This document shows, one piece after another, positions 13,351-14,012 of a stretch of 15,836 nucleotides of DNA (its first letter is position 1; each line of letters begins with the position of its first letter). Source of the stretch: a virus (Duplodnaviria; Heunggongvirae; Uroviricota; Caudoviricetes); the IMG/VR virus record IMGVR_UViG_2645727970_000008; one strand, written 5' to 3'. The notes under the pieces are model-generated. The model ran no database searches. It saw only the letters and a list, made by a program, of their open reading frames with translations, and was not told where the DNA came from. Both the position numbers and the translations under genes were made by a program.

Positions 13351-13530
13351 TTACCGCCAGTATTCAATGCACATGACCGCCATGAACACCCCTAAAAAAA
13401 GGGCATTTATATGTCCAAACATTAATATCAAAACATCAACTTTTTCCATATACCTTGCTGTGAAGATGATGGGCATACATGATGCGAACAACCAGAACGC
13501 AACAAACAAAAACTGCAATGCGTTTTTCAT
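13351..13530 (-). CDS. Small two-helix membrane protein (59 aa from ATG 13530) in an AT-rich island
   Basis: ATG with AGGGGGA Shine-Dalgarno. Two hydrophobic segments (ALQFLFVAFWLFASCMPIIF and VLILMFGHINALFLGVFMAVMCI). The track ORF starts at a GTG at 13569. Confidence 0.5.
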   Translation of the reverse strand: MKNALQFLFVAFWLFASCMPIIFTARYMEKVDVLILMFGHINALFLGVFMAVMCIEYWR

Positions 13531-14012
13531 TATTCCCCCTACAATCAATGTGCAATAACATTTAAACACACCTCAATTTAGCCGGACATATAAATATCTA
13601 AACCAGAAAAAATCACTTACATAGCGTTACAAACTCTTTAGTCTAAATATTCATCGTAAAACATTCCCCATACTTATCAGCCCGTTCTGCGCCAGGTAGC
13701 TCATTGCCTTATCTGGGAATCTGTAATCAGGTTTCCGGATGCTGGTGGATTTTCGCATTTTAGTTGTTCATAAAAGTGCACAGCTTTAACCAGTTCTTCT
13801 GATGTAACCGGGACTGGCGGGGCAGTGAATAAGGCCTGAATTTCATAGTTCGGCCTGTCGTTACAATCCTCTTTTTTCGGTACATATTTCCAGTCACCAG
13901 ACCACTACTTCCCCTGAAAGTCCGTAACGCCTTTTTTTCACGTAGCGATATCGCCATGCCACTGTTTTTGCTTGCCCCGCCGTTTCATGCCCTTCCTGAT
14001 AATTAACCTCGC

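What the first reader, a model, noticed from the sequence alone, without database searches (positions are those of the whole stretch)
13351..13700. AT-rich island encoding a 59-aa two-helix membrane protein immediately upstream of hok
Sharp drop in GC content, a strong AGGGGGA Shine-Dalgarno and a very hydrophobic product. This could be a second small membrane toxin, an exclusion protein or a holin-like factor. Its position next to hok suggests a cluster of membrane-active small proteins.
Basis: seen in the sequence. Interest (0 to 1): 0.45.

Follow-up and report, generated by a model that had tools for sequence, protein, structure and literature searches.

The report
Unannotated two-helix membrane protein beside hok
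The 59-codon reading frame next to the hok toxin gene is very probably a real gene for a tiny two-helix membrane protein, found only in E. coli/Shigella prophages and missed by current RefSeq annotation, and its function is still unknown.

Summary
A 59-aa ORF lies at 13351-13530 on the minus strand, preceded by AGGGGGA-AATA-ATG, in a 36% GC stretch 258 nt upstream of the hok start codon. On its own it proves little: an ORF this long appears in 17% of shuffles, and the T-rich strand alone favours hydrophobic products.

The decisive evidence is a second lineage, also restricted to E. coli and 44% identical. It is exactly 59 aa, has no indels, and also sits directly upstream of a hokD-like sequence, here 5'-deleted, in a prophage remnant at the ttcA site. 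Identity by codon position is 59/71/49%. pN is 0.32 and pS 0.72. Both frames stay open in only 8 of 20,000 column shuffles.

Lineage A is in 1569 and lineage B in 1043 of 5426 complete E. coli genomes. RefSeq annotated neither in any record inspected.

There is no match in Pfam, NCBIfam, PHROGs, PADLOC, PDB or Rfam. AlphaFold2 predicts two helices.

It is not a Hok homologue and not a credible holin, and it lacks type I toxin hallmarks. Function is unknown; an accessory inner-membrane protein is my best guess.

One oddity remains: all 12 polymorphisms within the two lineages are nonsynonymous.

The parts
13351..13530 (-). ORF59: the coding sequence of a 59-aa two-helix hydrophobic protein (lineage A), TAA stop included.
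   Evidence: ORF list and sequence. A 44%-identical 59-aa lineage B shows a coding-type divergence pattern. The ORF is intact in 115 of 118 copies sampled without regard to the ORF. AlphaFold2 predicts helices 2-26 and 28-58.
13534..13540 (-). Shine-Dalgarno sequence AGGGGGA, four bases before the ATG. It reads AGGAGGA in about half of related copies.
   Evidence: Sequence. The 13537 G/A polymorphism is split 49:52. Lineage B has AGGGA six bases before its ATG.
13394..13400 (-). T7 homopolymer inside codons 45-47 (Leu-Phe-Leu). It is a frameshift hot spot, and lineage B has no such run.
   Evidence: Sequence. A 1-nt deletion occurs here in 1 of 101 loci. Frameshifted 55-aa database variants P0020, P0023 and P0025 diverge at this point. 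Lineage B reads GCACTATGTATTGGGG.
13531..13650 (-). 120-nt AT-rich spacer between the upstream pseudogene and ORF59. No convincing promoter or terminator was found in it.
   Evidence: The consensus scan finds no minus-strand promoter or terminator here. The spacer aligns to lineage B only with several indels. It has no Rfam family. The leader fold has a z-score of about 0.
13301..13350 (-). Spacer between the ORF59 stop and the hok promoter. DNA similarity to lineage B runs on for 22 nt past the stop, to 13329.
   Evidence: A blastn segment of 70% identity over 98 nt spans 13426-13329, that is 22 nt past the stop; the global alignment shows further scattered matches for about 40 nt. Homology with hok cassettes of other phages ends near 13304.
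13268..13295 (-). Neighbour: the probable hok promoter, TTGCGG-16 nt-TAGAAT. This is my own reading of the sequence.
   Evidence: Sequence. The predicted transcript start of about 13261 coincides with the first position of the Rfam hok/sok leader match. The consensus scan did not call it, so it is an inference.
13090..13261 (-). Neighbour: the hok mRNA leader with the mok/sok regulatory region.
   Evidence: Rfam RF01794 sok, 106.7 bits, E = 7.8e-24. 933W annotates mokW and sokW at the homologous place.
12937..13092 (-). Neighbour: the hok (HokD-type) toxin gene, 51 aa.
   Evidence: Pfam PF01848 HOK_GEF, E = 1.2e-23. RefSeq names it hokD in an identical genome.
12851..12868 (-). Intrinsic terminator downstream of hok. 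It is the first terminator-like site after ORF59.
   Evidence: Terminator scan.
13651..14016 (-). Upstream neighbour: a decayed gene whose C-terminal fragment matches phrog_660.
   Evidence: RefSeq marks it as a pseudogene, 'frameshifted; internal stop'. The last 28 residues match phrog_660 at E = 7e-7. Mosaic breakpoints at 13686 and 13737 fall inside it.

Best explanation
ORF59 (13351-13530, minus strand) is a genuine protein-coding gene. It encodes a 59-aa helical-hairpin inner-membrane protein.

The two transmembrane helices span about residues 4-25 and 33-55, joined by a short polar or acidic loop. The probable topology is N-in/C-in. This is inferred from the positive-inside rule: lineage B has Arg-Lys at the N-terminus, an acidic loop and a C-terminal Arg.

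The protein belongs to an unnamed ORFan family restricted to E. coli and Shigella. The family has two lineages, and both sit in lambdoid-prophage nin regions directly upstream of a hokD-type cassette. The pair was therefore already linked in their common ancestor.

The gene is co-oriented with the replication, nin and Q genes, and no promoter or terminator of its own is detectable. I infer that it is transcribed mainly as part of the early-right operon and translated from its own strong Shine-Dalgarno sequence.

The residues invariant between the lineages are polar or helix-packing ones embedded in the helices: S17-C18-x-P20-I-I-x-T24, F38-G39-x-x-N42-A-L, and E56-x-W58-R59. I infer that the protein acts by intramembrane binding to a partner protein, as an accessory modulator or exclusion-type factor, rather than as a pore-forming killer.

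My probabilities: real gene about 0.8, membrane hairpin about 0.75, and this functional guess only about 0.35.
For: Homologue: an exhaustive HMMER scan of 1.84 billion proteins found a second lineage (P0039/P0044) at E = 3e-10. It is 44% identical and exactly 59 aa.

Coding signature:
- The alignment has no gaps, and 19 columns are invariant.
- Identity by codon position is 59/71/49%.
- Every other frame contains stop codons in at least one of the two lineages.
- By the Nei-Gojobori method pN is 0.32 and pS 0.72, giving dN/dS of about 0.17, against 0.5 and 1.2 in the shifted control frames.
- Both frames stay open in 8 of 20,000 column shuffles, and amino-acid identity this high occurs in 164 of 20,000.
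- The flanks align only with indels, while the ORF has none.

Synteny: lineage B is followed after 55 nt by a hokD-like 3' fragment that is 80% identical to window 13024-12959.

Spread: lineage A is in 1569 and lineage B in 1043 of 5426 complete E. coli genomes. Both occur together in strain KSEC38 (H11, H97).

Integrity: the ORF is intact in 115 of 118 informative copies, from 120 loci anchored on a 30-mer outside the ORF.

Constraint: lineage A has fewer segregating sites in the ORF than in the intergenic flanks, 7 of 177 against 18 of 170, Fisher p = 0.02.

Translation signal: the Shine-Dalgarno sequence is kept or improved in variants.

Structure: AlphaFold2 predicts two helices with mean pLDDT 73.

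Active phages: the gene is present in records named as phages, vB_EcoS-640R1, vB_EcoS-813R8 and PhiR42_1.

Genomic setting: this is a lambdoid prophage with DUF968, RusA, a Q-like antiterminator, lysozyme, Rz and Nu1, all on the same strand.
Against: No expression data of any kind were found; literature searches for the peptide strings returned nothing.

RefSeq/PGAP annotates neither lineage in the records inspected.

Within the lineages, all 12 segregating substitutions are nonsynonymous (8 in A, 4 in B). This has P = 0.019 even under neutrality, and it is not what ongoing purifying selection predicts.

All copies within a lineage are at least 95% identical, so within-lineage intactness of the ORF is weak evidence.

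The single-sequence features are partly compositional: an ORF this long occurs in 17% of shuffles, and the T-rich strand biases towards hydrophobic residues.

Only two lineages exist, so the coding test rests on one deep comparison with saturated synonymous sites.

The transcription route, the topology and the mode of action are inferences.
Confidence: 0.6

Rival explanations
1. Relic gene. ORF59 coded for a functional protein in ancestral phages, but in present-day E. coli prophages and remnants it is drifting neutrally. It stays open only because the copies are young.
For: All 12 within-lineage substitutions are nonsynonymous. Lineage B sits in a clearly decaying remnant with an integrase fragment, a DUF1627 fragment, a 5'-deleted hok and a frameshifted metal ABC transporter permease gene (sitD-like by my reading). 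The gene upstream in lineage A is a pseudogene. Frameshifted and truncated versions are in the databases. No promoter of its own was found.
Against: The ORF is intact in about 97% of unbiased copies, while the neighbouring hok and the upstream gene are visibly damaged. Lineage A has 2.7-fold fewer segregating sites in the ORF than in its flanks. The variants are conservative (V/I, M/I, A/V, H/Y). The Shine-Dalgarno sequence is retained or improved. The gene is present in records named as phages.
Confidence: 0.2
2. Non-coding AT-rich spacer. The ORF is a chance open frame in the gap between a nin-region gene and the hok cassette, and its hydrophobicity is a by-product of the T-rich strand.
For: An ORF of at least 59 aa occurs in 17% of shuffles. 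An equally long antisense ORF exists. The baseline GRAVY of shuffled translations is 0.67. RefSeq does not call the ORF. There are no synonymous polymorphisms. The sequence is found only in E. coli and Shigella among 185,579 species representatives.
Against: A homologue with about 60% nucleotide identity has the same start, the same stop, no indels and identity ordered codon position 2 > 1 > 3. Both frames stay open in only 4e-4 of shuffles. The antisense ORF contains stops in lineage B. The flanks carry indels and the ORF does not. The conserved residues are polar motif residues, not merely hydrophobic filler.
Confidence: 0.12
3. Second membrane toxin, or co-toxin or modulator of Hok. On this view ORF59 damages or depolarises the inner membrane, or tunes Hok activity, and the ORF59-hok pair is a functional two-gene killing or addiction module.
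For: Adjacency to hokD-type sequences is conserved in both lineages. The protein is small and very hydrophobic. The excess of nonsynonymous polymorphism could reflect diversifying selection, as seen in conflict genes.
Against: There is no similarity to Hok/Gef or any toxin family. It has two helices rather than the single helix typical of type I toxins. No antisense RNA family, opposite-strand promoter-like site or structured leader was found. The strong exposed Shine-Dalgarno sequence is unlike tightly silenced toxins. ORF59 persists intact where hok is destroyed by an IS element or deletion, so its retention does not depend on hok and it is evidently tolerated. Most hok cassettes lack it.
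Confidence: 0.1
4. Holin- or antiholin-like lysis-timing factor of the class II, two-transmembrane-domain type.
For: It has two predicted transmembrane helices and a probable N-in/C-in topology in a phage. Weak BFVD fold matches include proteins labelled holin, but all have E > 1.
Against: It has no holin Pfam or PHROG match. The C-terminus is only E-Y-W-R, not a charged tail. The gene lies in the early nin region upstream of Q, not in the late lysis cassette, where lysozyme and Rz sit at 3807-4738. No fold match reaches E <= 0.001.
Confidence: 0.03

Closest known systems
Hok/Gef type I toxins (Pfam PF01848), including the adjacent hokD-type gene
   Same: Both are small, very hydrophobic inner-membrane proteins encoded in prophages. 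ORF59 is physically linked to hok in both of its lineages.
   Different: There is no sequence similarity. ORF59 has two helices rather than one. It has no mok-like leader ORF, no sok-like antisense RNA and no structured leader. It survives intact where hok is inactivated.
Class II (two-TMD) holins and pinholins such as phage 21 S21 (from my own knowledge of the family)
   Same: Similar size range, two transmembrane helices and a probable N-in/C-in hairpin in a lambdoid phage.
   Different: It has no charged C-terminal tail and no dual-start motif. It is not next to an endolysin and sits in the early operon. It has no profile or fold match.
Phage moron or superinfection-exclusion small membrane proteins, for example T4 Imm and HK97 gp15 (from my own knowledge)
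   Same: It is a small prophage-borne inner-membrane protein in a segment whose base composition differs from its neighbours. It is non-essential and variably present among related phages.
   Different: No promoter or terminator of its own was detected. It matches no PADLOC model. No exclusion phenotype has been tested.
Bacterial small membrane-protein regulators such as AcrZ, MgtS, MgrB and KdpF (named in PMC10903887 and from my own knowledge)
   Same: It is under 60 aa and membrane-embedded, with conserved polar residues inside the helices that suggest partner binding.
   Different: Those are chromosomal, mostly single-helix, and have known partners. ORF59 is prophage-borne and two-helix, and no partner is known.

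Membership tests
Hok/Gef (PF01848) | Sequence match to the HOK_GEF profile | tested here: not met
   Pfam scan at E <= 0.1 gave no families for ORF59. The neighbouring hok scores 82.9 bits.
Hok/Gef (PF01848) | A single N-terminal transmembrane helix with a periplasmic C-terminal domain containing a conserved Cys | tested here: not met
   Two hydrophobic blocks and two predicted helices, 2-26 and 28-58.
Type I toxin-antitoxin locus | A small hydrophobic toxin peptide | tested here: met
   59 aa, GRAVY 1.19.
Type I toxin-antitoxin locus | A cis- or trans-encoded antisense RNA antitoxin with its own promoter | tested here: not met
   No Rfam family in 13262-13800 even at E <= 1, apart from a chance snoRNA hit. 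No plus-strand promoter-like site lies near the ORF. The consensus scan is insensitive, so the absence is not proven.
Type I toxin-antitoxin locus | A structured leader that sequesters the ribosome-binding site | tested here: not met
   Folds of -70 to +40 around the start give z = 0.04 for lineage A and -0.26 for lineage B against shuffles.
Type I toxin-antitoxin locus | Toxicity on expression | not testable with these tools
   This needs an induction experiment.
Class II holin | Two transmembrane domains | tested here: met
Class II holin | A hydrophilic, highly charged C-terminal tail | tested here: not met
   The C-terminus is IEYWR in lineage A and IECWR in lineage B, only four residues after the second helix.
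Class II holin | Location in the late lysis cassette next to an endolysin or spanin | tested here: not met
   Lysozyme is at 4241-4738 and Rz at 3807-4256. ORF59 is at 13351-13530, upstream of the Q-like gene at 10523-11077.
Class II holin | A match to a holin profile or fold | tested here: not met
   No Pfam or PHROG hit. No BFVD fold match at E <= 0.001.
Phage moron | Base composition distinct from the neighbouring genes | tested here: met
   36% GC against 0.47-0.56 in the adjacent 300-400 nt. From my reading of the printed sequence, lineage B is AT-rich as well.
Phage moron | Its own promoter and terminator, allowing expression from the repressed prophage | tested here: inconclusive
   The consensus scan found none on the minus strand between 13351 and 13700. 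The same scan also missed the hok promoter. No promoter element is conserved between the lineages.
Phage moron | Presence or absence polymorphism among otherwise related phages | tested here: met
   Related phages have other genes directly upstream of the same hok cassette. Mosaic breakpoints lie at 13686 and 13737.
Protein-coding gene (general test) | Reading frame, length and codon-position divergence pattern conserved in a distant homologue | tested here: met
Protein-coding gene (general test) | An excess of synonymous over nonsynonymous polymorphism within populations | tested here: not met
   0 synonymous against 12 nonsynonymous.

The most novel reading that the evidence does not exclude
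ORF59 and hok form an ancestral two-gene membrane module. On this reading the hairpin protein acts directly on Hok, for example as a protein-level immunity factor or a gate for the toxin, or on the same membrane target. It would be under diversifying selection, as hinted by 12 nonsynonymous against 0 synonymous polymorphisms. That would add a protein component to a system thought to be controlled purely by RNA.
Probability: 0.08. Interest if true: 0.65.

Novelty: new member of a known kind. Interest (0 to 1): 0.35.

Why it matters
If the gene is real, a small membrane protein carried by roughly a third or more of sequenced E. coli genomes is missing from the reference annotation. Lineage A is in 29% and lineage B in 19% of complete genomes, with some overlap. 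The protein also belongs to no family in Pfam, NCBIfam or PHROGs.

I did not find it at the K-12 Qin hokD locus. A K-12 derivative also lacks lineage B. That absence would explain why K-12-centred small-protein surveys missed it.

Its conserved position beside hokD-type cassettes gives a concrete, cheap hypothesis to test about prophage membrane-active accessory genes.

It is also a useful test case for gene callers. Single-sequence signals are ambiguous here, and a single deep paralogue comparison settles the question.

Tried and rejected
Searches that found nothing:
- Profile searches of ORF59 and lineage B against Pfam, PHROGs, NCBIfam and PADLOC.
- A PDB sequence search with the family profile at E <= 10.
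- Rfam at the gathering threshold and at E <= 1. The only match in the area was the neighbouring sok/hok leader.
- A Foldseek search of the AlphaFold2 model against BFVD, with nothing at E <= 0.001, as expected for a bare helical hairpin.
- Literature searches for peptide strings of both lineages, with no papers found.

Attempts to widen the family:
- A profile search with both lineages and a metagenome scan found no third lineage.
- A scan of 185,579 species representatives found only E. coli and Shigella.

Readings I rejected:
- The 72-aa GTG-start version used in many GenBank entries. The upstream extension is closed by a stop in lineage B, and the Shine-Dalgarno sequence lies inside the extension.
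- The plus-strand 63-aa ORF at 13367-13558, annotated 'hornerin' in ON470612. It contains stops in lineage B.
- ORF59 as part of the mobile hok cassette. Similarity to the cassette in other phages stops near 13304.

Procedural notes:
- The first locus set, from the search for related loci, was biased towards intact ORFs. I replaced it with a set anchored on a 30-mer outside the ORF.
I rebuilt the alignment.

Full report
**Observation**

The window is a lambdoid prophage read on the minus strand. Running from right to left it carries:
- small nin-region genes;
- a hok cassette;
- a rem-like ORF, a DUF968/YdfU gene and RusA;
- a DUF1133 Q-like antiterminator and a DNA methylase;
- two tRNAs and an STnc100 sRNA;
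- a NanS-type esterase, lysozyme, Rz and Nu1.

The flagged ORF is real. Its coding bases are 13354-13530 on the minus strand, with the stop at 13351-13353. It encodes 59 aa, MKNALQFLFVAFWLFASCMPIIFTARYMEKVDVLILMFGHINALFLGVFMAVMCIEYWR, preceded by GTAGGGGGAATAATG.

GC drops to 0.35 at 13400-13699 from 0.55-0.56 over the hok region. Parts of the nin region further right are nearly as AT-rich.

The neighbour at 12937-13092 is a Hok/Gef protein (PF01848, E = 1.2e-23). Its mok/sok leader matches Rfam RF01794 at 13090-13261. ORF59 therefore ends about 90 nt before the hok transcript leader and 258 nt before the hok ATG.

**Is it more than chance?**

Not from this sequence alone.
- An ATG ORF of at least 59 aa turns up in 826 of 5000 dinucleotide-preserving shuffles of the 350-nt gap.
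- A 63-aa ORF lies on the opposite strand.
- The minus strand is 37% T, so random translations are already hydrophobic, with mean GRAVY 0.67 against 1.19 observed.
- In a genome 100% identical over 13100-13900, RefSeq/PGAP annotates nothing between hokD and the upstream pseudogene.
- Nothing was annotated under the match in any of the 40 E. coli records listed.

**Distribution**

The 331-nt segment 13320-13650 is in 1569 of 5426 complete E. coli genomes. It is usually single copy, and every copy is at least 95% identical.

Among one genome for each of 185,579 species, only two Shigella flexneri and one E. coli record carry it.

A word-indexed search of 5.8 billion proteins returned only near-identical E. 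coli/Shigella ORFs, plus truncated and frameshifted versions. Some GenBank submissions call it 'hypothetical protein' or 'membrane protein', with either 59 or 72 aa.

**Integrity in an unbiased sample**

My first locus set was selected by protein similarity and so was biased towards intact ORFs. I replaced it with 120 viral-contig loci pulled using a 30-mer from the spacer outside the ORF.
- 115 of the 118 informative copies have an intact 59-aa frame.
- Lineage A has fewer segregating sites in the ORF than in the intergenic flanks: 7 of 177 against 18 of 170, Fisher p = 0.02.
- The Shine-Dalgarno polymorphism at 13537 turns AGGGGG into the canonical AGGAGG in half the copies.

Because the copies are so similar, this is only weak support.

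**Decisive evidence: a second lineage**

An exhaustive HMMER scan of 1.84 billion representative proteins found P0039 (E = 3e-10, 44% identity, exactly 59 aa) and its relatives. The common form is P0044, MRKILMYLCISIWIVISCVPIILTSEYLTEASIMALMFGHANALCIGVFISIIYIECWR, also from E. coli. Its exact sequence is indexed in 3751 blocks of the assembly collection.

The two lineages align without gaps, and 19 columns are invariant. Many of these are polar or structurally special residues: S17, C18, P20, T24, G39, N42, E56, W58 and R59.

At the DNA level:
- Overall identity is 60%, and by codon position it is 59%, 71% and 49%.
- Every alternative frame contains stops in at least one lineage. That includes the antisense ORF that some phage records annotate as 'hornerin'.
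- Nei-Gojobori estimates give pN 0.32 and pS 0.72. dN/dS is therefore about 0.17, with dS saturated, against 0.5 and 1.2 in the two shifted control frames.
- Shuffling alignment columns leaves both frames open in only 8 of 20,000 trials, and matches the amino-acid identity in 164 of 20,000.
- The flanks are also recognisably homologous, but they align only with several indels, whereas the ORF has none.

The in-frame GTG extension to 72 aa is closed by a stop in lineage B. The 59-aa start is therefore the conserved one.

**Conserved linkage to hok**

Lineage B lies in a prophage remnant at the ttcA site, which I recognise as the Rac integration site. The order there is ttcA, an integrase fragment, a DUF1627 fragment, an AT-rich stretch, ORF59-B, a frameshifted metal ABC transporter permease pseudogene (sitD-like by my reading), then uspF and ompN.

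Fifty-five nucleotides after the ORF59-B stop comes a 66-nt piece that is 80% identical to window 13024-12959, the 3' part of the hok coding sequence. Its matches across E. coli genomes are annotated hokD. Lineage B therefore kept the ORF but lost the hok promoter, the leader and the first 22 or so codons.

In lineage A, all 100 full-length loci have the hok leader contiguous with ORF59. Of the 120 anchored loci:
- 70 have an intact hok;
- at least 19 have an IS element inserted exactly at the hok start codon;
- 23 end before hok;
- 8 are otherwise rearranged.

The linkage runs one way only. Similarity to the hok cassettes of 933W and other phages stops near 13304, and those phages have unrelated genes upstream. 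Lineage B is in 1043 of 5426 genomes. Both lineages occur together in strain KSEC38 (H11 and H97).

The ORF is absent from the K-12 Qin hokD locus. A K-12 derivative, RR1, and BL21(DE3) match the lineage B query only over its hokD part.

**What the protein looks like**

It has two hydrophobic blocks separated by RYMEKVD in lineage A or SEYLTEAS in lineage B. AlphaFold2 with the nine-sequence alignment predicts helices 2-26 and 28-58 with mean pLDDT 73.

The charge distribution suggests an N-in/C-in hairpin: Lys or Arg-Lys at the N-terminus, a neutral or acidic loop, and a C-terminal Arg. This is an inference.

No family matched in Pfam, PHROGs, NCBIfam, PADLOC or PDB sequences. No viral fold match is significant.

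**Expression signals**

No promoter-like or terminator-like site was found on the minus strand between the upstream pseudogene and hok. The scan also missed the hok promoter, so it is not sensitive. No promoter element is conserved between the lineages.

The translation-initiation regions of both lineages are no more structured than shuffles, with z-scores of 0.04 and -0.26. No RNA family matches.

Because the gene is co-oriented with the replication, nin and Q genes, I infer that it is transcribed with the early-right operon on induction. Whether it is made in the lysogen is open.

**Function**

This part is inferred.
- Toxin reading: disfavoured. The protein has two helices, an exposed strong Shine-Dalgarno sequence and no antisense partner. 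It also persists intact where hok has been destroyed.
- Holin reading: disfavoured by the missing charged tail, the early-region location and the lack of any match.
- Best guess: an accessory inner-membrane hairpin that binds a host or phage membrane protein through its conserved intramembrane polar residues. I hold this at about one in three.

**An unresolved oddity**

All 8 substitution polymorphisms in lineage A are nonsynonymous: A16V, M28I, V31I, M37I, H40Y, V48G, V52G and M53T. So are all 4 in lineage B: M6V, S11N, A31V and I33R.

Given the transition and transversion opportunities of these sequences, this has P = 0.019 even under neutrality. It may reflect chance plus singleton sequencing errors, relaxed selection in resident prophages, or diversifying selection. 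The present sample cannot tell these apart.

**Verdict**

The proposed functions are untested, and two of them, holin and Hok-like toxin, are disfavoured.

It is a new, unnamed family of a familiar kind, the small accessory membrane proteins of prophages. Interest is moderate.

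Noticed in passing
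window 13091-13092; loci L091, L096, L101, L113, L115, L121 and others: In 27 of the 120 related viral-contig loci, similarity to the window stops at 13091, directly at the hok start codon. The one junction I read (L091) continues into an IS element, and a string search found that IS sequence in 19 loci. hok is thereby cut off from its leader while ORF59 stays intact. All share the same junction, so this may be one ancestral event.
   Followed up: partly
window 13354-13530 and L208 6001-6177: All 12 segregating substitutions inside the two ORF59 lineages are nonsynonymous and none is synonymous (P = 0.019 under neutrality). The between-lineage comparison, in contrast, shows dN/dS of about 0.17.
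   Followed up: partly
window 13367-13558 (+): A 63-aa antisense ORF overlaps ORF59. In phage records ON470612 and PV340562 the only CDS annotated at this place is a 252-nt plus-strand one, named 'hornerin' in ON470612 and 'hypothetical protein' in PV340562. The 63-aa frame contains stop codons in lineage B, so these calls look spurious.
   Followed up: yes
window 13394-13400: A T7 run on the coding strand inside ORF59 is a frameshift hot spot. Several 55-aa database variants (P0020, P0023, P0025; 11, 24 and 19 member sequences) diverge exactly here. They could be sequencing errors or real slippage. Lineage B has no such run.
   Followed up: partly
window 13651-14016 (-): The gene upstream of ORF59 is a pseudogene, marked 'frameshifted; internal stop' in RefSeq. 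Its last 28 residues match phrog_660, a family of unknown function. Mosaic recombination breakpoints at 13686 and 13737 fall inside it.
   Followed up: partly
window 12716-12895 (+): RefSeq annotates a 59-aa plus-strand 'hypothetical protein' (WP_001112736.1) that runs across the hok terminator and overlaps the start of the rem-like ORF on the other strand. One phage record calls part of it 'mobile element protein'. It looks like a doubtful call.
   Followed up: no
L208 6235-6300 (E. coli PU-1, ttcA-uspF interval): There is a 5'-deleted hokD-like remnant beside ORF59-B, in a prophage scar at the ttcA site (the Rac integration site, by my recollection). The scar is flanked by an integrase fragment, a DUF1627 fragment and a frameshifted metal ABC transporter permease pseudogene. 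RefSeq annotates nothing at the ORF or the hok remnant.
   Followed up: partly
window 2458-2799 (-): A 113-aa ORF with a TonB C-terminal domain (PF03544, E = 2.7e-15) lies between the Rz gene and the Nu1 terminase gene. This is an unusual cargo position for a TonB-like domain.
   Followed up: no
window 7709-7898 and 8598-8844 (-): An STnc100 sRNA match (132 bits) and two tRNA genes lie between the Q-like antiterminator/methylase and the NanS-type esterase (5238-7103). This is the layout I recall from Stx-type lambdoid phages.
   Followed up: no
L086 (E. coli ECMA0423, CP178302.1): A copy of the lineage A segment is only 88% identical and carries several single-base deletions, some of them in homopolymer runs. 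It may be a truly diverged, broken copy or a product of an error-prone assembly.
   Followed up: no
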